The notes under the pieces are model-generated. The model worked only from the letters and a program-made list of their open reading frames with translations, searched no databases and was not told the origin of the DNA. Shown here one piece after another: positions 7,244 to 40,179 of a stretch of DNA of 64,000 nucleotides. Positions within the stretch are counted from its first letter, which is position 1. Every line of letters begins with the position of its first letter. Source of the DNA: Bryobacteraceae bacterium (lineage in GTDB: Bacteria; Acidobacteriota; Terriglobia; Bryobacterales; Bryobacteraceae); contig JAHCHE010000013.1 in NCBI GenBank assembly GCA_026129905.1, positions 101,475 to 165,474 on the forward strand, in the 5' to 3' direction. Made by a program: the position numbers and the translations under genes.

Positions 7244-7807
7244 GTGAAAATGCGGTTGATATACTTGGAGGAAAGCACACCGCGCTATCTGGAGACGTCA
7301 ATGAGCACTGCCAAACTGCAACCGGTCGAGAGTCAGGAACATGGTCTGGAGCCACCCGAGCTTTCGGGTCCGCCCGCTTACCGCGTCGCCAACAGGATCC
7401 TGGATTGGATTACCAGCGAGAGAACGCAGTTGCTGAACATTACCGAACGGATCAACGAGGTGGTGCGCAAAAGCGGCATCCGCAACGGTCTCGTTCACTT
7501 GCAGTCGCTGCACACCACAACCGCGGTATTTCTCAATGAATGGCAGGAGGCGCTGCTCGACGACGTCAAGGCTTTCCTCGAGGAGACCGTCTCGCCGCGC
7601 AAGTATTACCGCCACAACGACCCGCAATTGTCCGACTGCGAACGGCAGAACGCCGACTCACACCTCCGAGGCATGCTGATGGGACAGAGTCTCCTGCTTC
7701 AGGTCCGCAACGCGAAAGTGCTGCTGGGGACGTGGCAGACGATCGTGCTGGCGGAGTTCGATGGGCCGCGGAGCCGGTCGCTGGCCGTTCAGGTATCGGG
7801 CGTCTGA
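7244..7807 (+). CDS. YjbQ/UPF0047 family protein (secondary thiamine-phosphate synthase-like); true start may be the internal ATG at 7301
   Basis: Core 'LQSLHTTTAVFLNEWQ...HLRGMLMGQSLLLQV...LGTWQTIVLAEFDGPRSRSL' matches YjbQ. A paralog lies at 22431..22850. Confidence 0.7.
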   Translation: MKMRLIYLEESTPRYLETSMSTAKLQPVESQEHGLEPPELSGPPAYRVANRILDWITSERTQLLNITERINEVVRKSGIRNGLVHLQSLHTTTAVFLNEWQEALLDDVKAFLEETVSPRKYYRHNDPQLSDCERQNADSHLRGMLMGQSLLLQVRNAKVLLGTWQTIVLAEFDGPRSRSLAVQVSGV

Positions 7808-7810
7808 CGG

Positions 7811-8251
7811 ATGCCGAGATACTTCACGCTGAGCCAGGCTCAGAGTCTGTTGCCGCTGCTGGAAAAGGAATTCCGGCAGGTGGTTCACATCCGGCGGGAG
7901 TTGGAAGGCGCCGCATCCGATCTGGACGCCTACTCGCAGCACATCGCCATGGCTGGCGGCGCCCTGGTGGACCAGCGGCGGCTGCTGAGTCTGCGCGGCC
8001 GGCGCGACGCGCTCGCCACGCGGCTGAAGGAAGGCATTGAAGCCATTCAAGAGCATGGCTGCCAGGTGAAGGACCTGGACATGGGCCTGCTCGACTTCCC
8101 GACGTTGTTGCGAGGGCAGGAAGTGTTGCTGTGCTGGAAGCTCGGCGAGTCCGAGATCGCCTATTGGCACGGAACCGAGGAGGGCTTCCGAGGCCGCAAG
8201 CCGATCGACGACGACTTTCTCGCCAACCACGCCGGCGACCCGCAGCACTGA
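7811..8251 (+). CDS. DUF2203-like hypothetical protein, 4-nt downstream of yjbQ (operon)
   Basis: 146-aa ORF starting 'MPRYFTLSQAQSLLPLLEKEFRQ...', resembling the DUF2203 N-terminus. It is tightly coupled to the upstream gene. Confidence 0.45.
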   Translation: MPRYFTLSQAQSLLPLLEKEFRQVVHIRRELEGAASDLDAYSQHIAMAGGALVDQRRLLSLRGRRDALATRLKEGIEAIQEHGCQVKDLDMGLLDFPTLLRGQEVLLCWKLGESEIAYWHGTEEGFRGRKPIDDDFLANHAGDPQH

Positions 8252-8327: not shown

Positions 8328-8899
8328 ATGTCGAAGCGCGAAAGTTCTTCAAATCTAGTACAGAGTACTATAGAATTTAAGTGGAGCTTGAATTCCCTGC
8401 GCGGCAAGGCGACAGTTTTCAAGACAAAATGGTTTCAGCGGTTTGCCCGGAGGGAGAAGCTCTCGGACGCAGCTCTCTCGGAAGCCGTCGTGCGCGCCAG
8501 AATGGGCGGATCGATGCAGACCTCGGCGGTGGCGTCATAAAGCAGTGGATCGCGCGGGTGGGGGAGGGAAAGTCGGGTGGATACCGGACCATCATTCTCT
8601 TCCGGCGGGGGGAGCGTGCGATCTTTATGTACGGCTTCGCAAAGAGTGAGCGGGAGAACCTCCGCCCCGATGAACAAAAACAATTCAAAGAAGCCGCGAA
8701 GCACGTGTTCGCCCTGACGGAAGCGGAGCTTGCGGCGTTGGTTCGGGAAGGCGAATTCGTAGAGATGACAAGGACATGCGTAAGAGCAAGAAGTACCGAA
8801 GCGATGCGATGGCCTCCATTCACGAGACAATGGAGGCCCTACACAAGGTGGGCGCGATCGGCAAACGGACGATGCGGCGCTTCGACGAAGCTTGCCTGA
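8328..8899 (+). pseudogene. RelE/HigB-like toxin (PF06296-type, 'KTKWFQ...GKSGGYR' family), frameshifted
   Basis: The N-terminal part is in the frame of ORF 8328..8540 (TVFKTKWFQRFARREKLSDAALSEAVVRA). The rest is in the frame of ORF 8381..8899 (NGRIDADLGGGVIKQWIARVGEGKSGGYRTIILFRRGERAIFMYGFAKSERENL...ELAALVREGEFVEM). Joining them at about 8490..8510 reconstitutes the canonical family layout. This is consistent with a 1-nt deletion in an A-run (...gccagaa[a]tggg...). Confidence 0.6.
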
Positions 8900-9099
8900 C
8901 TCGGGTCCAGCCGCTCAGGCCGGGCGAGATCAGAGCGCTGCGGGAGCGGGAGCAGGTGAGCCAAGCGGTCTTTGCGAATTACCTGAACGTGACACCGAAC
9001 CTGGTGAGCAAGTGGGAGCGAGGCGAGAAGACGCCTTCCGGCCCGGCGCTAAAGCTGCTGTCGCTGGTCGAGAAGCACGGCATTGCGGCGGTTGCCTGA
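8776..9099 (+). CDS. HTH (XRE/COG2944-type) antitoxin partnering the RelE/HigB-like toxin (start 8776 or 8809)
   Basis: '...MASIHETMEALHKVGAIGKRTMRRFDEACLTRVQPLRPGEIRALREREQVSQAVFANYLNVTPNLVSKWERGEKTPSGPALKLLSLVEKHG' is the typical antitoxin paired with PF06296 toxins. The reading frame is intact. Confidence 0.75.
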   Translation: MRKSKKYRSDAMASIHETMEALHKVGAIGKRTMRRFDEACLTRVQPLRPGEIRALREREQVSQAVFANYLNVTPNLVSKWERGEKTPSGPALKLLSLVEKHGIAAVA

Positions 9100-13430: not shown

Positions 13431-14012
13431 ATGACGGACGACAAGACAAGGAGCGAGACGTTGCAGGCCGCAGTCGAAATGGAGCCGATGCCCGGCGAGG
13501 TCGAATCCCTGGAAGAGATCTTCCAGCGGCATCACGGCCTGGTCTTCCGCGCGGCTTACCGCGTCACGGGAAATGCGGTAGATGCCGAAGATGTGCTTCA
13601 GACCGTCTTCCTGCGCCTGGCTCGGCGACCGCCGGAGGCCGGGAAGGTGGACGGAATGGAAAGCTATCTCTATCGCGCCGCCGTGAACTCCGCTTTGGAT
13701 GTGGTGCGGCGTCGGAGGACAACGTTGACGATGCCGCTGGAGTCGGCGGCGGCCACTGCCGAATCCAGCCTGGCCGGCAACCCGGCTCGGGCGTTTTCCG
13801 ATCGCGAAACCCGGCAATGGCTTCGCGCTGCCATCGCTCGCTTGAGTCCAACCGCCGCGGAGATGTTTGTTCTGCGGTTTTTTGAAGACAAGGAGAACCC
13901 GGAAATCGCGCGGCTCCTGGGGACGACGGTCGCCACCGTGGCCGTTACCCTGCACCGTACGCGGGAGCGCTTGCTGCGCGAGTTTCAGGCCCGTTCTGGA
14001 GGTGGACGATGA
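13431..14012 (+). CDS. ECF-family RNA polymerase sigma-70 factor
   Basis: 193 aa. Region 2 ('FQRHHGLVFRAAYRVTGNAVDAEDVLQTVFLRL') and region 4 ('EMFVLRFFEDKENPEIARLLGTTVATVAVTLHRTRERL') motifs are present. Confidence 0.85.
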   Translation: MTDDKTRSETLQAAVEMEPMPGEVESLEEIFQRHHGLVFRAAYRVTGNAVDAEDVLQTVFLRLARRPPEAGKVDGMESYLYRAAVNSALDVVRRRRTTLTMPLESAAATAESSLAGNPARAFSDRETRQWLRAAIARLSPTAAEMFVLRFFEDKENPEIARLLGTTVATVAVTLHRTRERLLREFQARSGGGR

Positions 14013-16561
14013 AGGCGAATGAGCCATCTGAAGAGATGTTCGATCGGGCGATCGAAGATATCCGAAACGAATCCGTCGACGCCGGGGCAGTAAAGGCCGC
14101 GGCCCAGCGAGCGTGGGCACGCGTCTCGCAGGCCGGCGCGTCGCTCAACAGTTGCGACGATTTCCAGGCCCTGATCCCGGACTACCGCGTGGGACGGCTG
14201 AACCAGGCCCGCATGCTGCTGGTGAAGGACCATCTGGGCGAGTGCATCGCTTGCCGCAAGGTCTACATGGGACGCGCCGAAGGTCCCCGTTCCCACGCCG
14301 CGCCCAGCCTTTCCTGGCCGCTGCGCTGGGCCATCGCCGCCGCACTGGCCATCACAGCCGGCGCTGCCGGCTGGTACATGTTCCAACAGTTCGGCGGCGG
14401 CGGGCGCGAACCGGCCGCGACGGTCGCTTATGTGAACGGGCCGTTGTACCGCCTGGCCGCCGATGAAGCCCAGCCGATCGGCGCCGGCGCCGCGATCCGC
14501 GCGGGAGAACCGATACGCGTCGGCAACGCCTCCGGCGCAACGATCCGCCTTCGCGACGGCTCGACAGTGGAAGCGCGGCAACGCTCGGACTTCTCCGTCA
14601 TTCAGACGCGCAGCGACGTGACGATCCGCCTGACCCGGGGAAGTGTTATCGTTGAGGCGGCGAAGCGCCGGAACGGCCATCTCTACGTCTCCACGCCCGA
14701 TTGCCGTGTCGCCGTCACCGGAACCGTCTTCAGCGTCAACAGCGGCGTCAAGGGCTCCCGCGTTTCGGTGATCGAAGGCGAGGTCCATGTGAACCACGGC
14801 GGACGGGAACGGATCCTCCATGCCGGCGATCAATACGCCAGCACGGCGACCTTGGCGCAAGTTCCGGTGGAGCAGGAAATCGCCTGGAGCCGCAAGGCCG
14901 ACGAGCACATCGCGCTGCTCGGCGAATTCAAGAGACTTGGCGAGGCGATGGAGCGCGCCGTCAGCCTGCCCGATGCCCGCTACGCGAGCGCGCTGCTGAA
15001 TTACCTGCCGCGCGACACCGCCATCTACGCCGCCATACCCAATCTCGCCGAATCGCTGGCCCAGGCTGAGCAGGTGTTCGAACAACGGCTCAGCGAGAGC
15101 GCCGCGCTCCGCCAGTGGTGGGAGGAAAAGAACGGCGCGGATTCCGCCAACAAGCTCCGCGAGACGATCGACGAAATCCGCCGGCTCGGCGCCTACCTGG
15201 GCGACGAAATCGTGATCGCGGCCGCCCTCGACGCCGAGGGCAAGCTCGGCGACCCCGTCATTCTGGCGGAACTGAAGCAGAGCGGCTTTGCCGAGTTTCT
15301 GCAAGCGGAAGCAGGCAAGCACGGCGGCTCGCTGCGTCTCTATGACAGCGCCGCCGACATCGCGCCCGCGGCGGGCGACCTGCTGGTGTACGCCCGGCCG
15401 AATATCGCCGCGGCTTCAACCAGCGTTGCGCTGCTGCGGACCGTAGCGGCCGCTATCGAAGGCCAGGCCGCCGGCAGCCTCGCCGGGACCCCGTTCCACG
15501 CACAGGTCGCCGAAGCCTACCGCGACGGCGTCGGCCTGCTGTTCTGCGCCGATCTTCAGCGCATCATTCCCAAAGGCGACGAAAGAGAGATGCTCGGCAA
15601 CGTCGGCGGCCTGGTGGTCAGCCAGAAGATGGTTTCCGGCAAGCCCGACACCCACGCCGTGCTGACCTTCCGCGGCAACCGCGAAGGCATAGCCTCCTGG
15701 CTGGCCGATCCGGCCCCGGTCGGCGCGCTGGACTTCGTTTCGCCCGACGCGACGGTCGCGTTCTCCTTCGTGGCGAAGGACCTGACCAAAGTGGTTGACG
15801 AACTGGCAAGCAAGGTTCCGGGCTTCACCGACGGCTTGGCCGGGGCGGAGCGGGAACTCGGCGTCAACATCCGCAACGACCTTGCGGCGTCGCTGGGCGG
15901 AGAGTTCGTCTTCGCCTGGGACGGCCCCGCGATCCCCACGCCTTCCTGGAAAGCCGTCGCCGAAGTGAACAACCCCGGCGCGCTACAGGGCGCGCTGCTG
16001 GCGATGGTGAACTCCCTCAACCAGAAGGCCGCGCAGGAAGGTAAACCGCTGCTCGAAACCTCGCAGGAAATGGTGGGCGGCCGGGCGTATTACTCGATCA
16101 CGAGCCCCGCGTTCAAGCCGTTCACCGAGATGCACTACGTCTTCATCGACGGCTACCTGGTGGCCGCCCCATCCCGGGCGCTGCTCGATAAGGCGATCCA
16201 GAACCGGGCCGCGGGCAACGTGCTGGCCTCCTCGCCGAAGTTCACGTCGCTTCTGCCCCGCGACGCGCAGCCGAACTTCTCGGCCATGGCCTATCACAAT
16301 ATGACCGCGGCGGCCGGCGCGGTGAGCGGCGCGCTCACCCCCGAGCAGCAGAAAGCCCTGGCGGAATTCGCCCAACCTACGCTCGTGATGGCCTACGCTT
16401 CCAACGACCGTATCGCGATGGCCACCGCCGGCGAAGCCTTCGCCCTCACTCCCGGTAATCTCTTCGGCCTGAAGACGCCGCTCGGCCTGTCCGGGATGCT
16501 CGAGTCGGGCAAAGGGCGCCGGGACGCAAAAGAAGCGACAAAGAAGCCGCACCGGCATTGA
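14009..16561 (+). CDS. Anti-sigma factor: zf-HC2 N-terminus, one TM helix, FecR domain and a large (~550 aa) periplasmic C-terminal domain
   Basis: Overlaps the sigma gene by 4 nt. The HxxxCxxC-like 'HLGECIACR' is followed by a TM helix 'WAIAAALAITAGAAGWYMF'. FecR-like beta segments ('TIRLTRGSVIVE...VAVTGTVFSV') follow. Confidence 0.75.
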   Translation: MKANEPSEEMFDRAIEDIRNESVDAGAVKAAAQRAWARVSQAGASLNSCDDFQALIPDYRVGRLNQARMLLVKDHLGECIACRKVYMGRAEGPRSHAAPSLSWPLRWAIAAALAITAGAAGWYMFQQFGGGGREPAATVAYVNGPLYRLAADEAQPIGAGAAIRAGEPIRVGNASGATIRLRDGSTVEARQRSDFSVIQTRSDVTIRLTRGSVIVEAAKRRNGHLYVSTPDCRVAVTGTVFSVNSGVKGSRVSVIEGEVHVNHGGRERILHAGDQYASTATLAQVPVEQEIAWSRKADEHIALLGEFKRLGEAMERAVSLPDARYASALLNYLPRDTAIYAAIPNLAESLAQAEQVFEQRLSESAALRQWWEEKNGADSANKLRETIDEIRRLGAYLGDEIVIAAALDAEGKLGDPVILAELKQSGFAEFLQAEAGKHGGSLRLYDSAADIAPAAGDLLVYARPNIAAASTSVALLRTVAAAIEGQAAGSLAGTPFHAQVAEAYRDGVGLLFCADLQRIIPKGDEREMLGNVGGLVVSQKMVSGKPDTHAVLTFRGNREGIASWLADPAPVGALDFVSPDATVAFSFVAKDLTKVVDELASKVPGFTDGLAGAERELGVNIRNDLAASLGGEFVFAWDGPAIPTPSWKAVAEVNNPGALQGALLAMVNSLNQKAAQEGKPLLETSQEMVGGRAYYSITSPAFKPFTEMHYVFIDGYLVAAPSRALLDKAIQNRAAGNVLASSPKFTSLLPRDAQPNFSAMAYHNMTAAAGAVSGALTPEQQKALAEFAQPTLVMAYASNDRIAMATAGEAFALTPGNLFGLKTPLGLSGMLESGKGRRDAKEATKKPHRH

Positions 16562-17324
16562 GCGCCAAGCCGTTGAGTACTTGACCACGGCTCCGCCGCC
16601 GCCACGTTGTACAGCCACGTTGGCGGCGCGGAGCCTTTTTGTGTTCGGCCGCGCGGTGAGAGGGTCGCCGGAGAGATGTTTTCCCGAGACTTCCGTGATC
16701 TGCGGTTCCCGTCAAGACGTCCCGGAGCTCTTTGAGAGAGGCGGACTCGCCGTTGAACTCGGCGATCAAGTGTCAACTGGCGAATACCGAGCAGCAGATT
16801 CCGAGCGATGGCGTCAGGTTTTTCATCGGGCGAAAACTCGGGCGAAAACATGGGTCCGACCGTGAGCACTTGCTTGGCTAGCTTTTCTCCAACGGCTGGA
16901 AGCTTGCACGTGCTTGACCCCAGCAACACCGTGTTACAACGCGGGTAGCGCCGCAGCAGTGTTCACGGGAACGGTCGTTGACGCTGTTGAACATCCGGCG
17001 CGGCCCGTTTCGGTGGAAACCAGTGGGCGAGGGTTTCAAAATCGATTTTGACGAAAAGAAGAACGAGAAGACGGCATGTTCATAGAGTGCCGGGCAATTT
17101 CCCCGACGCGCGACATCCCGAAAGCGCTGGCATGGATCATTGAGCCAATCATTCTAAATCCCGTCGCCCCGAAAGACCTCGTACGCGCCTCTGCCCTCTC
17201 CACACTTGCAGCATGGCCTGCGCAACGCTTGGCGAGAGCCGTAGCTCGGCGGCACGAGCCGTCCGCGGATGGGCAAGCATCACGCGCCCCGGCGCCCCCT
17301 GCTAAAATCAAGACGTAACCCCGC

Positions 17325-18431
17325 TTGCCTTTGGTGAAAACGACCTTGTGTGAACTTGCGACTGTTGCGGCGCTTGAGCTGAAATTCGGCCTCAAGTTTG
17401 ACGATCTCTACCGGCGCGAAGGCCTCCAGGTCCTCGATTCACGGTTCCTGAAGTACTTGGAGGGACTTGATCCCGCTCTGCTCCAGCGGCTCGCTGCGGC
17501 GAGGGCTCGCCCCGAGGCGCTCGCGGCCAAGGAACGCTCCGAGCTGATCCTCGCGCTCGCGCCGGTTGTCGAGAGCTTCATTGCCGAACTGTTCGGCATC
17601 GCGGACGAGCTCGAGGAACTCCGCTCCCGCCACCTCGAGCCCGAGCGGCTCTTCTTTGTCAAGCGCCAGTTCGTCCAGCGCAGCCAGTACGTGAAAACCG
17701 CCGCGCCGGAAGCCGCGCGTATCGACGGCGAAGCGCTCGCCGCCGAACTCGAGGCTCTGTTCGGCGAGCCGTTTTCCGAGGAAGCCTACGCCGCGCACGT
17801 CGCGCGCTGGCTGGAAACGGAAGCCGCCAACCGAGACAACCTGGTTCTGGCCGGCCGCTACGCCGCCTGGGCCCTCAATACGGAAGAGGGCCGTCGCATG
17901 CACATCTTCGGCGCGCTGTTCCGCTTCCCTCAGAAGATCGACATGTACAACCTGGTCCCCGCCGAAGCCATCGTTCGCAACGGCGTGGAACAGAAAGGGC
18001 TCGGCGGCGAACACTGGCGCAGCCGCGACGGCTTCCAGTTGACCGATGCCGGCATGAACCTTGTCGAAGCCCTCGACCAGGCGCGCTATTGCATCAAGTG
18101 CCACAACCAGGGCAAGGATAGCTGCTCCACCGGCCTGATCGAGAAAACCGGCGCCTTCAGACAGACGGTGTTCGGCGTCACCCTCAACGGCTGCCCGCTC
18201 GAGGAGAAAATCTCCGAGTTCCAGACGCTCAAGGAGCAGGGTCACGCCCTCGGCGCCCTCGCCGTCATCGCCATCGACAACCCCATGGCCGCCGCTACCG
18301 GGCACCGCATCTGCAACGACTGCATGAAGTCCTGCATTTACCAGAAGCAGGAGCCGGTCAACATCCCCCAGGTGGAAACCCGCACGCTGAAGGACGCGCT
18401 GGCGCTGCCCTGGGGCTTCGAGATCTACTAG
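17325..18431 (+). CDS. N-terminal part of a large GltD/NfnB-like oxidoreductase (unknown ~260-aa domain + [Fe-S] Cys cluster region), ended by in-frame TAG
   Basis: 'CIKCHNQGKDSC...NGCPLEEKI...ICNDCMKSCIYQ' resembles the Fe-S region of glutamate-synthase small-subunit-like proteins. The ORF ends at TAG 18429..18431, yet homology continues in the same frame downstream. Confidence 0.6.
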   Translation: MPLVKTTLCELATVAALELKFGLKFDDLYRREGLQVLDSRFLKYLEGLDPALLQRLAAARARPEALAAKERSELILALAPVVESFIAELFGIADELEELRSRHLEPERLFFVKRQFVQRSQYVKTAAPEAARIDGEALAAELEALFGEPFSEEAYAAHVARWLETEAANRDNLVLAGRYAAWALNTEEGRRMHIFGALFRFPQKIDMYNLVPAEAIVRNGVEQKGLGGEHWRSRDGFQLTDAGMNLVEALDQARYCIKCHNQGKDSCSTGLIEKTGAFRQTVFGVTLNGCPLEEKISEFQTLKEQGHALGALAVIAIDNPMAAATGHRICNDCMKSCIYQKQEPVNIPQVETRTLKDALALPWGFEIY

Positions 18432-20852
18432 CTGCTCACCCGCTGGAACCCGCTCAATTTCGAGCAGCCGCTGCCGCTGCCGCCCAGTGGATACAAGGTG
18501 CTGGTGGTGGGCCTCGGCCCCGCCGGCTTCACGCTGTCGCACTACCTGGTCAACCAGGGACACGCGGTCGTCGCCGTGGACGGGTTGAAGATCGAACCGC
18601 TGCCCGAAGCCGTTTCCGGATTCGACGCTTCCGGCGCCCGCGTGCCGTTTCGCCCTATCCGCGATCTCGACGAGCTGTACGAGCCGCTCGAGAACCGCTC
18701 GATGGCCGGCTTCGGCGGCGTCGCCGAGTACGGCATCACCGTCCGTTGGGACAAGAACTTCCTCAAGGTCATCCGCCTGCTGGTGGAGCGCCGCGAGCAG
18801 TTCGCCATGTACGGCGGCGTTCGGTTCGGAGGCACGCTGACGCCCGAGGGCGCGATGGCGCTCGGCTTCGATCACATCGCGCTGTGCATGGGCGCCGGCC
18901 GTCCGACCGTCGTCGACATGAAGAACGGGCTCGCCCGCGGCGTGCGCCAGGCGTCCGATTTTCTCATGGCGCTGCAACTCACCGGCGCGGCCAAGCGGGA
19001 TTCGCTCGCCAACCTCCAGATCCGCATGCCGGTGGTGGTGATCGGCGGCGGCCTGACGGCGATCGACACCGCGACGGAGTCGTTGGCCTACTACGTCGTC
19101 CAGGTGGAGAAGTTCATGCGCCGCTACGAAGCCCTCGCGGCCGAACGGGGCGAGCAGGCCGTGCGCGCCGGATGGACCAAAGAGGAGAACGCCATCGCCG
19201 ACGAGTTCCTGGCGCACGCGCGCGCTATCTGCATCGAGCGCCAGCGCGCCGCCGCCGAATCCAGAGCGCCCCGCTTCATCGACCTGCTGAATTCCTGGGG
19301 CGGCGCCACGATCGCTTACCGCCGCCGCCTGGTGGATTCGCCCAGCTACACCCTCAACCACGAAGAGGTGCAGAAATCGATGGAGGAGGGCGTCCGGTTC
19401 GCCGAAGGTCTTTCGCCGGAGGAGGTGCTGCTCGACGCCTTCGGCCACGCCCAGGCCGTCCGCTTCCGTAAGAGCCGCTACGACGAAGCCACCGGCAAGA
19501 TGGTGGATACCGGCGAAACCGCGGTGATGCCGGCGCGGTCGGTCCTCGTCGCCGCGGGCACCCAGCCCAATACCGTCCTGGCGCGCGAGGCGCCCGGCAT
19601 CGTTCTCGACGGCAAGTATTTTCAGGCGGTGGGCGAGGACGGCAGCCCCGTCGCGCCGGAGCGCATCGCCAAGCCGAAGACGCCGCAGGTGCTGATGTCG
19701 CTAAGGCCCGACGGCCGCGCGATGAGTTTCTTCGGCGATCTCCATCCGTCGTTCTCCGGCAATGTCGTCAAGGCCCTGGCCAGCGCCCGGCTCGGCTACC
19801 GGGTGGTGGACAACGTCCTGAGCCAGCGCAAGCCTGAGACGCCCGCGCCCGCGGATCTTCTGGAGACGTTGCGCGAGGAACTCCGGCCGGTGGTCTACGA
19901 GGTGGAACGGCTGACGCCGACGATCGTCGAGGTCGTCGTGAAGGCGCCGCAGGCCGCTCGCATGTTCAACCCCGGGCAGTTCTACCGCCTCCAGAACTAC
20001 GAGTCCCACGCATTGCGCGCCAACGGCACGACGCTGACCATGGAAGGCCTCGCGCTCACCGGCGCCTCCGTCGATCGCGAGCGCGGCCTCGTGTCGCTGA
20101 TCGCCTTGGAAATGGGCGGCTCGTCGGACTTGTGTGCGCACCTGAAGCCGGGCGAGCCTGTGGTTCTGATGGGTCCCACCGGGTCGCCGACGGAAACGCC
20201 CTCGGGCGAGACCGTGCTGCTGGCCGGCGGCGGCTTGGGCAATGCCGTTCTGTTCTCCATCGGACAGGCTCTGCGCGCCAACGGCTCGAGCGTCATCTAT
20301 TTCGCCGGCTACAAGAAGATCATCGACCGTTACAAGGTCGAGGAGATCGAGCGCGCTGCCGACGTCGTCGTCTGGTGCTGCGACGAGGCGCCCGGGTTCC
20401 AGCCGGACCGGCCGCAGGACCGCTCCGTCGCCGTGAACATTGTCGAGGCGATGGTCCGCTATGGACGCGGCGATCTCGGCCCCCCGGAGATCCCGCTCAG
20501 CGACGTCGATCGCATCATCGCCATCGGCTCCGACGGCATGATGTCCGCCGTGGCGCGCGCCCGCGCCGAACGTCTCGCGCCTTACCTCCGCCCCGGCCAT
20601 TGCGCTATCGGGAGCATCAACTCGCCGATGCAGTGCATGATGAAGGAGATCTGCGCGCAGTGCATTCAAAAGCACCGTGATCCCGTCAGCGGACGCGAGA
20701 TCGTGGTGTTCAGTTGCTTCAACCAGGATCAGCCGCTCGACCGCGTCGATTTCCCGTCCCTGCGCGACCGCCTTTCGCAGAACACACTGCAGGAGAAGCT
20801 GACGCGCCTTTGGATCGATCGCAGCCTTCGCCAGCTCGGACTACGGTCGTGA
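18432..20852 (+). CDS. Continuation: GltD/NfnB-like FAD/NAD(P) Rossmann domains + PyrK/FNR-like C-terminal domain (annotated ORF start GTG 18498)
   Basis: Same frame as 17325..18431. 'KVLVVGLGPAGF' and 'VVVIGGGLTAIDTA' dinucleotide-binding motifs are followed by FNR-like 'VLLAGGGLGNAVLFSIG' and a Cys cluster (CMMKEICAQC). The linker 'WGFEIY*LLTRWNPLNFEQPLPLPPSGYK' spans the stop codon. Confidence 0.6.
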   Translation: MLTRWNPLNFEQPLPLPPSGYKVLVVGLGPAGFTLSHYLVNQGHAVVAVDGLKIEPLPEAVSGFDASGARVPFRPIRDLDELYEPLENRSMAGFGGVAEYGITVRWDKNFLKVIRLLVERREQFAMYGGVRFGGTLTPEGAMALGFDHIALCMGAGRPTVVDMKNGLARGVRQASDFLMALQLTGAAKRDSLANLQIRMPVVVIGGGLTAIDTATESLAYYVVQVEKFMRRYEALAAERGEQAVRAGWTKEENAIADEFLAHARAICIERQRAAAESRAPRFIDLLNSWGGATIAYRRRLVDSPSYTLNHEEVQKSMEEGVRFAEGLSPEEVLLDAFGHAQAVRFRKSRYDEATGKMVDTGETAVMPARSVLVAAGTQPNTVLAREAPGIVLDGKYFQAVGEDGSPVAPERIAKPKTPQVLMSLRPDGRAMSFFGDLHPSFSGNVVKALASARLGYRVVDNVLSQRKPETPAPADLLETLREELRPVVYEVERLTPTIVEVVVKAPQAARMFNPGQFYRLQNYESHALRANGTTLTMEGLALTGASVDRERGLVSLIALEMGGSSDLCAHLKPGEPVVLMGPTGSPTETPSGETVLLAGGGLGNAVLFSIGQALRANGSSVIYFAGYKKIIDRYKVEEIERAADVVVWCCDEAPGFQPDRPQDRSVAVNIVEAMVRYGRGDLGPPEIPLSDVDRIIAIGSDGMMSAVARARAERLAPYLRPGHCAIGSINSPMQCMMKEICAQCIQKHRDPVSGREIVVFSCFNQDQPLDRVDFPSLRDRLSQNTLQEKLTRLWIDRSLRQLGLRS

Positions 20853-22456
20853 ACCCGGTTTCACTTCCGGGTCTGGTTGCCGGCGCCCGTTTTTTCGCCC
20901 GCCTTCCCGTTTATCTGCACCGGCGGCTCGACCTGCCGGAGGCCCGCGCCTTGCTGGCGCGAAGGCTGGAGCAGAGGGAGGCCCGCTTCCTCGACCGGCT
21001 GCGCACCGATGTCTACAGCCGGCCCAGCGGCGTCTACGCACGCTTACTCCGTCACGCGGGCTGCGAGTACGGCGACATTGAGCGCCTGGTGAAGACCGGC
21101 GGCGTCGAGGGGGCGCTCGAACGCCTCTTCGCCGCCGGCGTCTACCTCAGCGTCGACGAGTATAAGGGCCGGAAGCCTGTCGTTCGCGGGACTCTTCACA
21201 TCGAGGCCGGACCCGAACGGCTGCGCTCCCCCCGCGCCGCCTATCATCTTCCCGGCGCCAGCGGCGGCAGCCGCAGCGGCGGAACGCCGGTATTGATGGA
21301 CCTGCGTTTTGTCAGGGATTGCGCCGGCAACTGCGCGCTTTGCCTGGACGCCTGGGGCGGCGCGAACTGGCGGAAGGGAGATTATGAAACACCCGGCGCG
21401 GGCGCGCGTTTCCGCCTGGTGAAGTTCGCCGCCTTCGGGAGACTGCCGGAAGCCTGGTTTTCGCAGGTCCATCCCGCCGACCCGGCGCTGGCGCCCATCG
21501 CCCGATGGAACACGCGCGCCATGCGGCTGGCGAGCACGCTGGCCGGAAGGCCGCTCCCGGCGCCGGTCCACGCGCCTCTATACGACCCGGCGCCGGTGGC
21601 CGAGTGGCTCTCTTCGGTGTTGCGCGCCGGCGACACCCCTCACCTGTTCACCTTCCCGGGCTCCGCCGTGCGCGTCTGCCTGGCGGCCGAACAGAAAGGG
21701 ATCGAAATCGCGGGCGCTCGTTTCATGCTGGCCGGCGAGCCCATCACGGAGGCGCGGGTGGCCACCGTCCGCCGCAGCGGCTGCGTCGCCATCCCGAGGT
21801 ACGGCACGGTGGAGACCGGCGCCATCGCCTACGGCTGCCCCAACGGCGAGCATTCCGACGACGTCCACGTCCTGCGCGATATGCACGCCCTGATTCAGGC
21901 TGGCGACGACAACCCGGCCGGCCTGCCGCCCACCGGCATTCTGCTCACGCTCCTGCATCCGCGCTCGCCCTTCCTGATGATCAACGTCTCGATGGGCGAC
22001 CAGGCGCAGGTCGGCGAGCGGGACTGCGGGTGCCCTCTCTACAATGCCGGCTGGACGACGCGCCTCTACGAGATTCGCAGCTTCGAAAAGCTCACCGGCG
22101 GCGGCGTGACCTTCCTGGGGACGGACGTTATCCGTATCCTCGAGGAACTGCTGCCCGCGAAATTCGGCGGCGCGGCTACCGACTACCAGTTGGTGGAGGA
22201 AGAAGCCCCCGATGGCAGGCCGCTTCTGCTTCTCGTGGCGCATCCTGCGCTCGGGCCGATCGAGGAGTCGCGCCTCACCGAGACCTTTTACGCGGCGCTT
22301 GGCGAACTCTCGGATTACTCGGCGGCCATGACCCGGCGCTGGCGGGATGCCAATACGCTCCAGGTCGCCCGCCGCCCTCCCTCGATCTCGCGCGCCGGAA
22401 AGATCCTCCACCTGCACGCGTCCGGAAAGGTTAGTCCCCCACCACCGTCACCGTGA
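20849..22456 (+). CDS. PaaK-like adenylate-forming enzyme (phenylacetate-CoA ligase / F390-synthetase-related); GTG start overlapping the upstream stop (GTGA)
   Basis: 'FTFPGSAVRVCLAAEQKGIEIAGARFMLAGEPITEARVATVRRSGCVAIPRYGTVETG' matches PaaK/CapK-like ligases. The ORF track's upstream start at 20714 would overlap the preceding gene. Confidence 0.55.
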   Translation: MNPVSLPGLVAGARFFARLPVYLHRRLDLPEARALLARRLEQREARFLDRLRTDVYSRPSGVYARLLRHAGCEYGDIERLVKTGGVEGALERLFAAGVYLSVDEYKGRKPVVRGTLHIEAGPERLRSPRAAYHLPGASGGSRSGGTPVLMDLRFVRDCAGNCALCLDAWGGANWRKGDYETPGAGARFRLVKFAAFGRLPEAWFSQVHPADPALAPIARWNTRAMRLASTLAGRPLPAPVHAPLYDPAPVAEWLSSVLRAGDTPHLFTFPGSAVRVCLAAEQKGIEIAGARFMLAGEPITEARVATVRRSGCVAIPRYGTVETGAIAYGCPNGEHSDDVHVLRDMHALIQAGDDNPAGLPPTGILLTLLHPRSPFLMINVSMGDQAQVGERDCGCPLYNAGWTTRLYEIRSFEKLTGGGVTFLGTDVIRILEELLPAKFGGAATDYQLVEEEAPDGRPLLLLVAHPALGPIEESRLTETFYAALGELSDYSAAMTRRWRDANTLQVARRPPSISRAGKILHLHASGKVSPPPPSP

Positions 22457-22850
22457 TCTCGCGATCCCTCGGCCGGTCGTCGAAGTCGCACAACACGATC
22501 TGCTGCCACATTCCCGAACCCAACTGCCCGTCGATGATCGGGAAGCTCCTTGCCGTCCCTACCAGCGCGCTCCGCAAGTGCGAATACCCGTTATTGTCGC
22601 CCCACCGCGCGTTGTGGGCGTAATCTGAGGTCGGCGGCGCGATCTTGTCGAGGGCGCGTTGAAGATCGGACACGCAGCCCGGTTCGTACTCGATCGTGGT
22701 GATGCCGAGCGTCGAGCCGCGCCCGGAGACGTTCACTATCCCCGTGCGAATCCCGCTGTCCCGCACCATCTGCTCCACCTGCCGGTGGATGTCCACCACG
22801 TGACCGTGTCCCTGCGTGGATATCGGGAAGGACTTCTGAAAACTCGCCAT
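22431..22850 (-). CDS. yjbQ: YjbQ/UPF0047 family protein
   Basis: 139 aa, canonical YjbQ length. 'GIVNVSGRGSTLGITTIEYEPG...SHLRSALVGTARSFPIIDGQLGSGMWQQIVLCDFDDRPRDREI' matches the family signature. Confidence 0.8.
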   Translation of the reverse strand: MASFQKSFPISTQGHGHVVDIHRQVEQMVRDSGIRTGIVNVSGRGSTLGITTIEYEPGCVSDLQRALDKIAPPTSDYAHNARWGDNNGYSHLRSALVGTARSFPIIDGQLGSGMWQQIVLCDFDDRPRDREITVTVVGD

Positions 22851-26290: not shown

Positions 26291-26384
<94 letters not shown>

Positions 26385-26460
26385 GCCCTAATCATTCAAA
26401 GACTTAGACGGATTCGTGATATCGTTCGCAGGAGTACTGCCACTTGATGCCCGGGCAAGA

Positions 26461-26628
26461 TCAGGAAGCGGCCGCGCGCAGCGGCGGGAGCGCGACGGTG
26501 CGGGTTCGCTTGCCCTTGGGCTTCTTGATGAACACATGCCACCTACGACGAGCATCCGCCCTGGTGCAATGTGGAAACGAATCCGGCGGATTGGAGAACC
26601 TACCTGCGGTTGCGGACCACGGCAGCAT
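26461..26628 (-). pseudogene. Fragment of a tyrosine recombinase/integrase (~56 codons) abutting tRNA-Ser
   Basis: The minus-strand reading gives '...RRRWHVFIKKPKGKRTRTVALPPLRAAAS*'. 'GKGxKxRTVPL' is the conserved motif just upstream of the catalytic domain of tyrosine integrases. It is bounded by stops, so only a remnant remains. Confidence 0.45.
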
Positions 26629-26703
26629 TCAGGCGAAGCGAAGGCCGTTCATTGGACGCGCCAAATCCACAATCGGGCCGGTGGCAACAGCTCTAGAGCG
26701 ACT

Positions 26704-27054
26704 TCAACTCGCCCTCCGCAGCACGTCCTCCACTGCCTCGGGATGCTTGGCGATTACTGCCAGCAGCACGCGCGTAGGCGCGTCCGGCCGCGACCTGCCC
26801 TGCTCCCAGTTGCGCAGTGTGGCTGGCGGAAGGCCGAACTTTGTCGCGAACTCCGACTGGCTGAGTCCCATCTTGGTCCGGACCTTGCGCACATCAATCT
26901 CAGGGATGTGAACCAGCGTTACGCGGGCGTTGGTGCTCTCTCCGCGCGTCCACGCGATCGCGTCGTTCAGGCCCTGAATGATGCTCTCGCCCACCGTCTG
27001 GCGCTTTCGAGCGACCGCCTTCTTCGCCGGTTTCGCCGTCTTCCTCGCAGCCAT
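26704..27054 (-). CDS. HTH (XRE/COG2944-type) antitoxin, partner of second RelE/HigB-like toxin
   Basis: '...VTLVHIPEIDVRKVRTKMGLSQSEFATKFGLPPATLRNWEQGRSRPDAPTRVLLAVIAKHPEAV' has the same architecture as the 8776..9099 antitoxin. Confidence 0.75.
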   Translation of the reverse strand: MAARKTAKPAKKAVARKRQTVGESIIQGLNDAIAWTRGESTNARVTLVHIPEIDVRKVRTKMGLSQSEFATKFGLPPATLRNWEQGRSRPDAPTRVLLAVIAKHPEAVEDVLRRAS

Positions 27055-27064
27055 ATTGCACCTC

Positions 27065-27414
27065 CTATGCCTTCCTCGGATAGCCGGCGATCAGGGCCGG
27101 CACCAACCGTTTCATGGCGTTCTGCTCGGCCTTGCTCAGGTTCTCCTTCCGGCCCTTCGCATATGCGGAAAGCAGAAACACCGGCAGACGCTCGCTGTGG
27201 TAGTAGTAGATCACTCGCGCGCCGCCGCGCTTGCCCATGCCCGGCAAGGCCCACCGGATCTTCTAACGCCGCCGGTCTCCGGAATGATCTCTCCGGCTTC
27301 TGGATTCGCCGCGATGAACGCCACCAACCCCGCGCGCTCTGATCCGGAAAACAACGGCTTCGCCTTGCGCAGGGACTCCGCGGTCTCGACCACCGTCATC
27401 GGAGCATTCGCCAT
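27065..27414 (-). pseudogene. Second RelE/HigB-like toxin (paralog of 8328..8899), frameshifted
   Basis: The N-terminal part (ORF 27211..27414) reads '...GEIIPETGGVRR'. The C-terminal part (ORF 27065..27247) is in another frame: 'KIRWALPGMGKRGGARVIYYYHSERLPVFLLSAYAKGRKENL'. Restoring one 'a' in 'gttagaa[a]gatccgg' joins them into the family layout (TGGVRKIRW.PGxGKRGGAR). Confidence 0.6.
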
Positions 27415-27799
27415 GCTCCTTCACTATACGCAATTTGCGCAGCCTGAGTGCAGTTCCTTATCGGCGGCCTGCCGGGCGGGGTTGGTCACGAAACGGCCCG
27501 GATCGTCTGGCTCCACCTGATAGTCGAAAAATCGATCAGAAACTCCTGCCGCATGTATCACGGCCAACGTAACAGCCAGGCGCCCCAGTTTGCGGCGCAG
27601 CGTTTTGACCTCGGGCACGCGATCCAAGCCCACGATGCGCCCCAGATCGCCGGGCGCATGACGTTTCAAGGTCTCGAGGCGCGGGATGCGCCCTTCTCCA
27701 GTCCCTGGCGAAACCAACCCGTGACGGCGCCATGTATTGCGGCGTCCCGAGGATGGTTCCCTGGCCGAATGGTATTGTCCCCCGCCATATGACGCTGGG

Positions 27800-28560
27800 C
27801 GCTCGGCAAGGCGTTCGTGGCGGCCCTGGACATCGGCCGGTCCGGCCAAGTGCAGTTGATCTTCGACCGCCGCGTCAGCCGGCGTACGCCCGGCAAGTTC
27901 CGCACACGGGTGATTGCCGAGGGCGTGGTCCCGTCGCGGCACGTCGATTACAAGAACCACCCGGATCAAGCAGTATCACAAGGAAGGGCGCGCACTGCGC
28001 ACCGAAACCACGATCAACAACACCCGCGACTTCGGCATCGGCAAGTTGCTCAAGAACCTGCCCACCCTGCGGCAGGTCGGCTTCCAACCGGCGTCTCCTG
28101 GACGTCCAAAGAGTTTCGCACGATTGCGCGATTGGCGAGGACGCGTTTGATCGGGTGGTTCGCCCCACCGAAGTGGACGGACAAAGGGCATCGGCCCTTC
28201 GTTTCGGCGACCAGCGCGAGCAGGCTCTGTTCGCTGCGCTGGTGGTATTCCGTCTCCAACGGCGAGGGTTCACCAATCAGGAAATGCGCGCCCTGCTGGC
28301 GCAACTGCTGGGCCTCGATCCAGCCAACTACCCCATCGGAAGGATGACCTACGACCTCCGCCGGCTTCGCCTCCACGGAATCATCGAACGCATTCCGCAC
28401 AGCCATCGATATCAACTCACCCCGGATGGTCTACGCATTGCGCTCTTCTTCTCCCGGACCTACGCCCGCCTGCTGCGCCCTAAACTTGCCGAGATTATGC
28501 CGGCCGCGGCCACTCACATCCACGTTGCGCACGGCATTCGGCCGCCTCAACGGTCACATT
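27800..28560 (+). mobile_element. Transposase-like remnant: fragments of one protein spread over three reading frames (IS family not identified)
   Basis: Consecutive pieces sit in different frames: 'GRSGQVQLIFDRRVSRRTPGKFRTRVIAEGVVPSRHVDYKNHPDQ', then 'KQYHKEGRALRTETTINNTRDFGIGKLLKNLPTLRQVGFQ', then 'FTNQEMRALLAQLLGLDPANYPIGRMTYDLRRLRLHGIIERIPHSHRYQLTPDGLRIALFFSRTYARLLRP'. The region is dense with overlapping ORFs on both strands, as expected for a decayed gene. It lies in the island downstream of tRNA-Ser. Confidence 0.3.
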
Positions 28561-36365: not shown

Positions 36366-37112
36366 TCAAGCTGACGTTCTCTCCGGCGCGGGAAAACGCG
36401 GCTCGATGATAGTCTTCTCGAACGCAAAGCACCCTAACTGATGCGGCGCGTCTTCCGATTCCGCCTGCTCCCAATCGACGCGCCGGCCTGTCGCCCAGAC
36501 CGGACCACTGAAAAGCCGCCACATCTCCCGCCGCTTCAGACGGGCGCCAAGACGTTGCCACTGCTCAATCTCCCTAGCGGAATGCGAGCGGCAGATATAC
36601 GGCAAGTCCTGGCCGTAGAGCGCGTCGGTTCGTTTGTAGACGTTTGGGCAGTGCTCGCGATGATTGTAAGGCGTGGTGATGATCAGCAGCCCTCCGGGCG
36701 CAAGCAGGGCCAGCATGTTGCGCACCGCGTTCTCATGCTCGACGATATGCTCGATCACGCTGATGCATGTCACTGCGTCGAATGGGCCCCCGAACTCGCT
36801 GGGTTCGGTGATGTCTACGTCCAGGACGGTCCAGTGACGGTTCACGATCTGGTTGCGCCAGTAGTCACGCACATTGTCAATCGCGGTCACGATAAAGCCA
36901 CAGTTGCGCAAGAGGTGCGGCCACGCCGTAGTGCCGGTTCCGACGTCCAGCACGGTTTTCGGACGTTCCGCTGCGAGACAGTCGAGCGCAAAGCCGTATT
37001 CTATCGGTCGCTCGTTATGATGGGTGAAAGTCTGCCTGCGGTATTCCATCGAACAGAGTCGACGGATGTACCAGTTACCGGTCTGCCTCGCCAGCGCTTT
37101 CAGTGGGTTCAT
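36366..37112 (-). CDS. Class I SAM-dependent methyltransferase
   Basis: Motif I 'VLDVGTGTTAW' and motif II/III 'FDAVTCISVIEHI...LLAPGGLLIITTP'. Confidence 0.7.
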   Translation of the reverse strand: MNPLKALARQTGNWYIRRLCSMEYRRQTFTHHNERPIEYGFALDCLAAERPKTVLDVGTGTTAWPHLLRNCGFIVTAIDNVRDYWRNQIVNRHWTVLDVDITEPSEFGGPFDAVTCISVIEHIVEHENAVRNMLALLAPGGLLIITTPYNHREHCPNVYKRTDALYGQDLPYICRSHSAREIEQWQRLGARLKRREMWRLFSGPVWATGRRVDWEQAESEDAPHQLGCFAFEKTIIEPRFPAPERTSA

Positions 37113-40169: not shown

Positions 40170-40179
40170 AACTGCTCCC

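What the first reader, a model, noticed from the sequence alone, without database searches (positions are those of the whole stretch)
17325..20852. Large GltD/NfnB-like + PyrK-like oxidoreductase interrupted by one in-frame TAG
ORFs 17325..18431 and 18498..20852 are in the same frame, separated only by TAG at 18429..18431. Homology to glutamate-synthase small-subunit-type proteins runs straight across the stop: the Fe-S Cys region, then the linker 'WGFEIY*LLTRWNPLNFEQPLPLPPSGYK', then the first Rossmann 'VLVVGLGPAGF' at the expected spacing. The intact product would be a ~1175-aa protein with three parts: an unknown N-domain, an NfnB/SudA-like domain, and an NfnA/SudB/PyrK-like domain. The stop could be a recent nonsense mutation, a sequencing error, a real split into two polypeptides, or stop-codon read-through.
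Basis: seen in the sequence. Interest (0 to 1): 0.55.

Follow-up and report, generated by a model that had tools for sequence, protein, structure and literature searches.

The report
Single premature stop in oxidoreductase gene
A gene for a large, normally single-chain iron-sulfur flavoprotein in this metagenome-assembled Bryobacteraceae genome is cut in two by one TAG codon where every relative examined has a sense codon, which is an ordinary recent nonsense mutation or assembly error and not a special decoding event.

Summary
TAG at 18429-18431 lies in frame between two ORFs that together match one single-chain family of about 1,170 aa: an RP005_N domain, an NfnB/GltD-like part and an NfnA/PyrK-like part.

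All 120 best protein homologs, 81 genomic loci and 20 metagenome contigs with identical flanking bases are uninterrupted at this site. They carry Ser, Gly, Ala or Asp there, and none carries TAG. A single C>A change from TCG (Ser) would give the stop.

Apart from the stop, the gene shows no damage:
- It has no frameshift and no second stop.
- It departs at only 3 of 441 near-invariant columns, all conservatively.
- It has fewer lineage-specific changes than its intact sister sequence.
- dN/dS is about 0.1 on both sides of the stop.

Other evidence against programmed decoding or a conserved split:
- TAG ends about 10 other ORFs in the window.
- No suppressor tRNA was found in the window.
- The RNA downstream of the stop has no unusual fold.
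- No other family fragment ends at this site.

The window comes from a MAG, and the deposit annotates two "hypothetical proteins", KIT09_17315 and KIT09_17320.

Verdict: this is an unprogrammed, very recent lesion. The tools cannot separate a real nonsense mutation from a consensus error. Interest is low.

The parts
17334..18428 (+). 5' part of the interrupted gene (365 codons from GTG 17334). It encodes the RP005_N helical domain followed by the Cys-rich Fe-S domain. The deposit annotates it as KIT09_17315 (361 aa, start TTG 17346).
   Evidence: Homolog N-termini align to MKTTL.... NF005128 profile positions 2-362 are matched, and Pfam Fer4_20 matches residues 288-352. P0122 is a 100% match carrying PF27156 and PF14691. 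GC3 is 0.84.
18090..18335 (+). Cys motifs of the NfnB/GltD-type Fe-S domain: CIKCHNQGKDSC (18090-18125), GCP (18189-18209) and CNDCMKSC (18312-18335).
   Evidence: Motif coordinates are. These Cys are invariant in 68 homologs. The region aligns to the Fe-S region of 5vj7_A.
18429..18431 (+). Premature in-frame TAG. It is followed by C and creates the tetranucleotide CTAG. It occupies a codon that is Ser, Gly, Ala or Asp in all relatives.
   Evidence: Searches show the TAG. Residue counts at the site are S 97, G 20, A 3. Codon counts are AGC 42, TCG 18, AGT 6, GGC 7, GGG 5, TCC 2 in the 80 genome loci, AGC in L081, and AGC 10, TCG 3, TCC 1, GGC 3, GAC 3 in the metagenome contigs. CTAG is about 9-fold depleted in the window.
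18432..18497 (+). Linker codons (LLTRWNPLNFEQPLPLPPSGYK) between the stop and the first downstream start codon. They are conserved in the family but belong to neither annotated product.
   Evidence: One search gives the translation. L366, R369, W370, N371, P372 and L373 are invariant in the alignment. No ATG, GTG or TTG occurs in this stretch.
18498..20852 (+). 3' part of the interrupted gene. It encodes the FAD/NAD(P)-binding NfnB-like domains (first Rossmann motif VLVVGLGPAGF at 18498-18530, second at 19032-19067), then the NfnA/PyrK-like FAD/NAD module (from about 19884) with a C-terminal Cys cluster (20634-20732), and ends at stop TGA 20850-20852. The deposit annotates it as KIT09_17320 (784 aa, start GTG 18498).
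   Evidence: The product is an exact match to MCW5979845.1. NF005128 is matched from profile position 364, and PRK12778 and PRK06222 also hit. Pfam Pyr_redox_2 hits. GC3 is 0.88.

Best explanation
The TAG is an unprogrammed, very recent nonsense lesion in a gene that normally encodes one polypeptide of about 1,172 aa. I think the most likely version is a real point mutation carried by the sampled population. The most parsimonious path is TCG (Ser) to TAG by a single C>A change.

As written, translation stops after the RP005_N and Fe-S domains. The flavin/NAD(P) domains and the NfnA-like module are then not made, or are made only in traces by near-cognate read-through or re-initiation. The enzyme is therefore lost or severely reduced, and the locus is a pseudogene at its earliest stage.

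What is shown:
- The stop is there.
- The family is single-chain.
- The site is a sense codon in every relative examined.
- The rest of the gene is undamaged.
- TAG is a normal stop in this genome.

What is inferred:
- The change is real and not a consensus error.
- The ancestral codon was TCG.
- The truncated products are inactive.
For: The two pieces match one profile contiguously. All 120 best homologs are single chains of about 1,160-1,190 aa, apart from a few truncated or extended entries such as P0002, with S, G or A at the site. All 80 genome loci have uninterrupted ORFs with a sense codon at the site, and so does L081 (which has a separate frameshift downstream). All 20 metagenome contigs that share the exact 35 flanking bases have sense codons.

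TCG occurs at the site in 18 of 80 loci, so a one-step path exists.

There is no decay elsewhere. The window sequence departs at 3 of 441 near-invariant columns, all conservatively, and 13 of 120 intact homologs depart at least as often. The window lineage has fewer unique substitutions than its intact sister P0001 in both halves. dN/dS against L081 is 0.13 and 0.08 for the two halves.

About 40 other ORFs in the window were scanned against Pfam. About 30 of them match Pfam families, most over the full domain profile, and none looks broken, so the assembly is not riddled with errors.

TAG ends about 10 other ORFs in the window.
Against: No reads and no second assembly of this population are available. 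The best other copy in 15 billion proteins is 80% identical, so the base call cannot be verified.

The source is a MAG, where consensus errors and minority alleles do occur.

The closest relatives with DNA (L081, L001, L003, L004) use AGC at the site, not TCG. If the immediate ancestor had AGC, TAG needs three substitutions or a +T/-C indel pair, which looks more like an artefact than a mutation. Synonymous sites are saturated (dS > 1.3), so the ancestral codon cannot be inferred.
Confidence: 0.47

Rival explanations
1. The organism has a sense codon here (Ser), and the TAG was introduced during base calling, assembly, polishing or strain-consensus building of the MAG. The real gene is intact and makes the full-length enzyme.
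For: The sequence is from a metagenome-assembled genome. The gene is otherwise flawless and shows no relaxed constraint, which is exactly what an artefact predicts. The nearest relatives with DNA read TAC AGC CTG, and the window's TAC TAG CTG equals that string with one T inserted and one C deleted, a pattern typical of local consensus misalignment. Related assemblies of this family often show broken copies on long contigs, for example the frameshift in L081 and N-terminal fragments of 354-635 aa on contigs of 100-600 kb. The change creates CTAG, which is about 9-fold depleted in this genome.
Against: None of the roughly 40 other window ORFs scanned against Pfam shows a frameshift or internal stop, so the local error rate is low. 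Residual errors in long-read assemblies are mostly indels, and this one preserves the frame. A one-step real mutation from TCG is equally simple.
Confidence: 0.38
2. The stop is real and tolerated. The N-terminal piece (RP005_N + Fe-S) and a C-terminal piece re-initiated at GTG 18498 (or at GTG 18504 or 18507) are both made, and they assemble non-covalently into an active two-subunit enzyme, as classical NfnA and NfnB do.
For: The break falls between structural modules. It lies in a short helix after the Fe-S domain, 17 residues (by homolog numbering) before Rossmann strand beta-1. A GTG lies 66 nt downstream and the depositor's annotation uses it. Many genes in this window lack a strong Shine-Dalgarno sequence, so a weak one (-3.1 kcal/mol) does not exclude initiation. 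Nfn-type enzymes are known in both fused and split forms (PMC6405883).
Against: No relative is split here. None of 221 DNA or protein homologs has a stop at the site, and none of 119 N-terminal fragments ends there. Re-initiation would drop 22 conserved linker residues, including the invariant R-W-N-P-L, and would start inside the first Rossmann strand. There is no start codon between the stop and 18498. Nothing suggests adaptation to a split, such as a new ribosome-binding site or an overlapping stop-start.
Confidence: 0.08
3. The TAG is decoded as an amino acid at useful frequency, by leaky termination, a suppressor tRNA or pyrrolysine, so that full-length protein is made, possibly as a regulated fraction.
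For: The stop is followed by C. From my own knowledge of E. coli work, not tested here, this is a comparatively weak termination context. The site tolerates several residues in the family (S, G, A, D and N), so a near-cognate insertion would probably be harmless.
Against: TAG is absent from this site in all 221 relatives, so nothing is conserved. TAG ends about 10 other ORFs in the window. The only tRNA in the window is Ser(GCT), and Rfam finds nothing else. The 146 nt around and downstream of the stop fold no better than shuffles (z = +0.79). To my knowledge pyrrolysine is functionally required only in methylamine methyltransferases, and a small-residue linker position is not a plausible site.
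Confidence: 0.05

Closest known systems
NCBIfam NF005128 (PRK06567.1), 'putative bifunctional glutamate synthase subunit beta/2-polyprenylphenol hydroxylase'; Pfam architecture PF27156 RP005_N + PF14691 Fer4_20 + PF07992 Pyr_redox_2
   Same: The domain order is the same and the whole length is collinear with the profile: positions 2-362 match before the stop and positions from 364 match after it. Relatives at 63-80% identity are single chains of about 1,170 aa in Acidobacteriota, Alpha- and Betaproteobacteria and Planctomycetota.
   Different: The summed score of the two pieces (246.9 + 513.8 bits) is below the curated equivalog cut-off of 1,072 bits. This is therefore a homolog with the same architecture and not a member of that narrowly defined equivalog. 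The copy here is interrupted by a stop. I found no experimentally characterised member of the family.
NfnAB / NfnI / Xfn (NADH-dependent ferredoxin:NADP+ oxidoreductase; PDB 5jca, 5jfc, 5vj7, 4ylf), including the uncharacterised fused 'Pattern C' Nfn homologs described in PMC6405883
   Same: The middle part resembles the large subunit (Fe-S domain plus FAD/NADPH domains). Sequence E-values are 4.7e-18 to 5vj7_A and 7.4e-17 to 5jca_L, and Foldseek gives 8e-10. The C-terminal part resembles the small subunit (FAD/NAD plus a Cys cluster): 5jca_S at 3e-10 and 4ylf_A at 5.9e-9. Pattern C homologs likewise carry the NfnA-like part at the C-terminus of one chain.
   Different: This is one chain instead of two, in the reverse order (B-like then A-like). 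It has an extra helical N-terminal domain of about 250 aa (RP005_N) and long insertions in the flavin domain. Identity to Nfn subunits is only about 18-24%. Electron bifurcation and transhydrogenase activity are untested.
Ordinary bacterial pseudogenes created by a single nonsense mutation, and single-base consensus errors in MAGs
   Same: There is one premature stop relative to intact orthologs and no other change. Automated annotation called two adjacent 'hypothetical proteins'.
   Different: Nothing distinguishes this case from that class. The only notable point is that no decay at all is yet detectable.

Membership tests
RP005_N / NF005128-type single-chain Fe-S flavoprotein | N-terminal RP005_N domain (PF27156) | tested here: met
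   The precomputed Pfam annotation of the window's own N-terminal product P0122 lists PF27156 and PF14691. All close homologs carry it too. The local Pfam copy lacks this model.
RP005_N / NF005128-type single-chain Fe-S flavoprotein | Score above the curated NF005128 equivalog cut-off (1,072 bits) | tested here: not met
   The two pieces score 246.9 and 513.8 bits. Even summed (about 761 bits) they fall below the cut-off. The architecture is the same, but the protein lies outside the equivalog.
RP005_N / NF005128-type single-chain Fe-S flavoprotein | Encoded as one uninterrupted polypeptide | tested here: not met
   The window copy has TAG at 18429-18431. All 221 relatives examined are uninterrupted at this site.
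Nfn-type (NfnAB) ferredoxin:NADP+ oxidoreductase | NfnB-like module: Fe-S Cys motifs plus two dinucleotide-binding motifs | tested here: met
   The Cys motifs and the GxGxxG motifs are present and invariant in homologs. There is sequence and fold similarity to 5vj7_A, 5jca_L and 4ylf_B.
Nfn-type (NfnAB) ferredoxin:NADP+ oxidoreductase | NfnA-like module with FAD/NAD domain and C-terminal Cys cluster | tested here: met
   It is similar to 5jca_S and 4ylf_A and to NF004862/PRK06222 and the PRK00054 family models. The C-x5-C-x2-C...C motif lies at 20634-20732.
Nfn-type (NfnAB) ferredoxin:NADP+ oxidoreductase | Two subunits, nfnA upstream of nfnB, about 280 + 470 aa | tested here: not met
   The family is fused in the order B-like then A-like, with an added N-domain. 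This resembles the uncharacterised 'Pattern C' in PMC6405883.
Nfn-type (NfnAB) ferredoxin:NADP+ oxidoreductase | Flavin-based electron bifurcation / transhydrogenase activity | not testable with these tools
   This needs biochemistry on an intact homolog.
Programmed stop-codon recoding (pyrrolysine, suppressor tRNA, programmed read-through) | The stop codon is conserved at the site in orthologs | tested here: not met
   None of 120 proteins, 81 loci or 20 metagenome contigs has a stop there.
Programmed stop-codon recoding (pyrrolysine, suppressor tRNA, programmed read-through) | Decoding machinery (pylTSBCD or a CUA-anticodon tRNA) or a stimulatory RNA element downstream | tested here: inconclusive
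   There is none in the 64-kb window. The only tRNA is Ser(GCT), and the downstream RNA is unremarkable (z = +0.79). The rest of the genome could not be searched.
Programmed stop-codon recoding (pyrrolysine, suppressor tRNA, programmed read-through) | TAG rare or absent as a genuine terminator in the genome | tested here: not met
   11 of 42 ORFs with coding-type GC3 end in TAG, including this one.
Pseudogene by nonsense mutation | Disruption relative to intact orthologs | tested here: met
Pseudogene by nonsense mutation | Signs of relaxed selection or further decay | tested here: not met
   There is no acceleration, there are no unusual replacements, and dN/dS is about 0.1. Any inactivation is therefore very recent, or the stop is an artefact.
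Pseudogene by nonsense mutation | The stop is present in the organism's DNA (read support) | not testable with these tools
   No reads are available, and no second assembly of the population exists in the collections searched.

The most novel reading that the evidence does not exclude
The stop is real and tolerated. In this reading, this Bryobacteraceae lineage has just converted a universally single-chain NfnB-NfnA-type flavoprotein into a two-piece enzyme, by re-initiation at GTG 18498, or keeps it at low level through leaky UAG-C termination. That would capture a gene-fission event, of the kind proposed for Nfn evolution, at its first step.
Probability: 0.06. Interest if true: 0.35.

Novelty: already known. 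Interest (0 to 1): 0.1.

Why it matters
It matters little beyond annotation hygiene. The two 'hypothetical proteins' KIT09_17315 and KIT09_17320 should be one (pseudo)gene of the RP005_N/NfnB-NfnA-like family. If the stop is real, this organism has just lost, or nearly lost, a widely conserved but uncharacterised Fe-S flavoprotein. If it is an artefact, the gene is intact.

The family itself is the more interesting object. It has thousands of homologs in mostly aerobic soil and water bacteria, an Nfn-like cofactor layout in one chain, and no characterised member. That is independent of this stop codon.

Tried and rejected
1. Looking for the same population elsewhere. An exact-pattern scan of metagenome contigs with NNN at the codon found 20 contigs. 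All are distant orthologs at or below 78% nt identity with sense codons, and none is conspecific. Exact-sequence look-ups of the two halves found only the depositor's own entries, and the look-up of encoding contigs had no record of them. Read-level or population-level confirmation was therefore impossible.

2. DNA of the closest homolog. P0001 (80% identical) could not be fetched because the sample file was too large. The ancestral codon stays unresolved.

3. Genetic-code reassignment. Rejected, because TAG ends about 10 other ORFs in the window.

4. Suppressor tRNA or structured RNA. There is only tRNA-Ser(GCT) in the window, and the downstream fold is not exceptional.

5. A recurrent natural split. 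Rejected, because none of 119 short N-terminal homologs ends at the site and their ends are scattered.

6. An error-prone assembly. I looked for other broken genes among about 40 window ORFs with Pfam and found none.

7. Gene neighbourhood as a clue to function. The neighbours (sigma/anti-sigma pair, unknown ORFs, UPF0047, a URO-D-like protein) are not conserved with those in the P0001 or L081 loci, so no operon logic emerges.

8. Literature. A search for 'RP005' returned nothing relevant. I could not identify the sequencing platform of the KIT09 MAG.

9. Structure prediction. The AlphaFold model of the full-length homolog was only moderate (mean pLDDT 60.6). I used it only to place the site and to confirm the Nfn-like modules.
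Full report
**Observation.** The + strand reads GAG ATC TAC TAG CTG CTC, with TAG at 18429-18431. ORFs 17325..18431 and 18498..20852 share a frame. Translating 17325-20852 gives one internal stop, inside '...LPWGFEIY*LLTRWNPLNFEQPLPLPPSGYKVLVVGLGPAGF...'. GC3 is 0.84 upstream and 0.88 downstream of the stop in this frame. The long antisense ORF 17439..19448 is therefore the usual high-GC shadow ORF.

**Is it one gene?** Yes. The upstream piece matches NCBIfam NF005128 (PRK06567.1, 1,031 positions) at profile positions 2-362 (E 3.6e-73). The downstream piece continues from position 364 (E 8.8e-154). A search of 5.8 billion protein clusters with the joined sequence returned single-chain proteins of about 1,160-1,190 aa as nearly all of the 120 best hits, at 67-80% identity and mostly from Bryobacteraceae and other Acidobacteriota. 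In all 120, the residue aligned to the stop is Ser (97), Gly (20) or Ala (3).

A scan of one genome per GTDB species gave 80 loci from Acidobacteriota, Alpha- and Betaproteobacteria and Planctomycetota. Each was a single continuous tblastn match. All 80 have an open frame of at least 319 codons before the site (at least 352 where the contig end does not cut the gene) and at least 793 after it wherever a stop lies within the fetched DNA. Their codons at the site are AGC 42, TCG 18, AGT 6, GGC 7, GGG 5 and TCC 2.

A metagenome scan for the exact 17 + 18 flanking bases, with NNN at the codon, found 20 contigs. All have sense codons: AGC 10, TCG 3, TCC 1, GGC 3 and GAC 3. None is closer than 78% nt identity to the window. 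So TAG at this position is unique to the window among 221 relatives.

**Source and annotation.** The 784-aa product starting at GTG 18498 is exactly NCBI MCW5979845.1, 'MAG: hypothetical protein KIT09_17320 [Bryobacteraceae bacterium]', on a 222,523-bp contig. The upstream piece is 'hypothetical protein KIT09_17315', 361 aa, on the same contig. The window therefore comes from a metagenome-assembled genome, and the depositor's pipeline called two genes. Homolog N-termini suggest the true start is GTG 17334. The next best match to the N-terminal half in the whole collection is only 59-61% identical, and the best full-length match is 80%. No second assembly of this population, intact or broken, is available.

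**State of the rest of the gene.**
- Against 120 homologs, the window sequence departs at 3 of 441 near-invariant columns (V>A, A>S, L>I). Thirteen of the 120 intact homologs depart at least as often.
- In relative-rate tests against its intact sister P0001 with five outgroups, the window lineage has fewer unique replacements in both halves, for example 15 vs 25 (N half) and 26 vs 42 (C half).
- dN/dS against L081 is 0.13 for the N half and 0.08 for the C half. dS is saturated.
- There is no frameshift and no second stop.

Whatever produced the TAG happened too recently to leave any other trace, or it did not happen in the organism at all.

**Tests for programmed decoding.**
- Among 42 window ORFs with coding-type GC3, stops are TGA 21, TAG 11 (including this one) and TAA 10. 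TAG is therefore an ordinary terminator here.
- The only tRNA in the window is Ser(GCT), and Rfam finds nothing else.
- The 146 nt around and after the stop fold no better than shuffled sequence (z = +0.79).
- Nothing at the site is conserved as a stop in relatives.
- The base after the stop is C. From general knowledge of E. coli termination contexts, this is a relatively weak context, so trace read-through is conceivable. That is inference only.

**Tests for a real split.**
- No ATG, GTG or TTG lies between the stop and GTG 18498.
- That GTG is the first codon of the first Rossmann strand motif, VLVVGLGPAGF.
- Starting there would discard 22 linker residues that include the invariant R-W-N-P-L.
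- The Shine-Dalgarno-like pairing upstream is weak (-3.1 kcal/mol). Many genes in this window are equally weak, so this does not decide anything.
- Among 119 short N-terminal homologs returned by the N-half search, none ends at the WGFEIY| site. Their ends are scattered over about 290 positions, as expected from contig ends and random frameshifts.
- In an AlphaFold model of the 80%-identical homolog (mean pLDDT only 60.6), the site (Ser365) lies in a confidently predicted short helix (residues 360-369, pLDDT about 88-91). It is 17 residues before the first Rossmann strand (387-391). The cut therefore falls between modules, which is why a split cannot be excluded outright.

**Mutation or artefact?** A single C>A change from TCG (Ser) gives TAG, and TCG is used at this site by 18 of 80 loci. 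The closest relatives with DNA use AGC, however: L081 at 78% aa identity, and L001, L003 and L004. TAC AGC CTG becomes TAC TAG CTG only by three substitutions or by inserting T and deleting one C. That looks more like a local consensus error. Synonymous saturation prevents inferring the ancestral codon.

Several points speak against a sloppy assembly. About 40 other window ORFs were scanned against Pfam. About 30 of them match families, most over the full domain profile, and none shows signs of breakage. Examples are GH3 N- and C-domains, Vut_1, UPF0047, DUF2203, Asn_synthase, exosortase EpsH, FliW and flagellin. The new TAG creates a CTAG, a tetranucleotide that is about 9-fold depleted in the window (24 observed, 211 expected from base composition). 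That fits either a young mutation or an error. I put a real, recent nonsense mutation slightly ahead of an artefact (0.47 vs 0.38). Only the reads can decide.

**What the gene encodes.** The intact product would have three parts.
1. A helical RP005_N domain of about 250 aa (PF27156), confidently modelled over residues 11-190.
2. An NfnB/GltD/DPD-type module. It has Cys motifs CIKCHNQGKDSC, GCP and CNDCMKSC and two dinucleotide-binding motifs. PDB sequence hits are 5vj7_A (4.7e-18) and 5jca_L (7.4e-17), and the 5vj7_A alignment (residues 283-418) runs across the stop. Foldseek gives 5jca_L at 8e-10.
3. An NfnA/PyrK-type FAD/NAD module with a C-terminal C-x5-C-x2-C...C cluster. Hits are 5jca_S (3e-10) and 4ylf_A (5.9e-9).

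This layout, with the B-like part before the A-like part in one chain, resembles the uncharacterised 'Pattern C' fused Nfn homologs described in a review of Nfn enzymes (PMC6405883), with an extra N-domain added. By analogy, the intact enzyme probably passes electrons between NAD(P)H and a one-electron partner through FAD and Fe-S centres. This is inferred and not shown.

A stop at codon 366 (counting from GTG 17334) would leave only the N-domain and the Fe-S domain, without either flavin module, so the truncated product should be inactive. The summed NF005128 score (about 761 bits) is below the curated equivalog cut-off of 1,072 bits. I therefore describe the gene as a homolog with the same architecture, not as a member of that equivalog.

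**Neighbourhood.** The neighbours in the window are an ECF sigma factor and FecR-type anti-sigma pair upstream (13431-16561), an unknown 178-aa ORF on the minus strand (16393-16929) and an unknown 580-aa ORF downstream. The neighbours of the homologs in the P0001 and L081 loci differ. The gene appears to stand alone, and its context gives no clue to function.

**Verdict.** The finding is real and accurately described, but it is ordinary. It is one premature stop in an otherwise intact member of a known, uncharacterised, single-chain family, in a MAG. Programmed recoding and a conserved split are not supported. Novelty: already known kind. Interest: 0.1.

Noticed in passing
L081:10001-13515 (ENA ERZ25039504 contig_150192): The second-closest homolog (78% aa identity) is itself broken. 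tblastn shows the match switching from frame 2 to frame 1 near residue 1046, and the gene caller produced a 1,053-aa product plus a 103-aa product. This is probably a frameshift in a long-read-style assembly.
   Followed up: partly
Proteins P0125, P0126, P0127, P0135, P0151, P0192, P0199, P0201, P0202 and others: Many N-terminal fragments of this family (354-635 aa) sit on very long contigs (100-600 kb), so contig ends did not truncate them. Their ends are scattered. This suggests that this long gene is often broken by frameshifts or stops in assemblies, or is often pseudogenised.
   Followed up: partly
Family level: The RP005_N + NfnB-like + NfnA-like protein is very widespread. It occurs in Acidobacteriota, Alpha- and Betaproteobacteria and Planctomycetota, is highly conserved (77% mean column identity among 68 sequences), and I found no characterised member. 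The family is more interesting than the stop codon.
   Followed up: partly
Codon aligned to window 18429-18431 in L001-L101: The conserved Ser at this site is encoded by both codon families across relatives: AGC or AGT in 59 and TCG or TCC in 24. Gly (GGC, GGG) and Asp (GAC) also occur. The site has therefore switched between the two Ser codon boxes repeatedly.
   Followed up: no
window 26291-28430: tRNA-Ser(GCT) at 26291-26384 is followed by small ORFs. One has an MqsA/HTH_3 antitoxin-like domain (26704-27090, minus strand) and one is a weak transposase fragment (27424-27969, minus strand; Transposase_29, E 1e-4). This may be the remnant of an element integrated next to the tRNA.
   Followed up: no
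window 8674-9099 and 26704-27090: There are two separate HTH_3/MqsA-antitoxin-like ORFs in the window.
   Followed up: no
window 7244-7807 (+) and 22431-22850 (-): There are two paralogous UPF0047-family genes. The first is followed immediately, in the same frame after a TGA, by a DUF2203 gene (7808-8251).
   Followed up: no
window 48408-53870: Exosortase EpsH (48408-49307) and a DUF3485 protein (49258-49959) lie next to FliW (49999-50499) and an unusually long flagellin of 1,007 aa (50847-53870). The flagellin has normal N- and C-terminal flagellin domains and an insert of about 800 aa.
   Followed up: no
window 34470-36305 and 37482-43489 (- strand): Four consecutive large ORFs (611, 895, 416 and 668 aa) have coding-type GC3 but no Pfam match at E <= 1e-3. 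They flank a methyltransferase gene (36366-37112).
   Followed up: no
window 20714-22456 (+): A 580-aa ORF with no Pfam match has its longest form (TTG 20714) overlapping the 3' end of the oxidoreductase gene by 139 nt. The true start is probably further downstream. It is not conserved next to the homologs in the P0001 or L081 loci.
   Followed up: no
whole window: The tetranucleotide CTAG is strongly depleted: 24 observed against about 211 expected from base composition.
   Followed up: no
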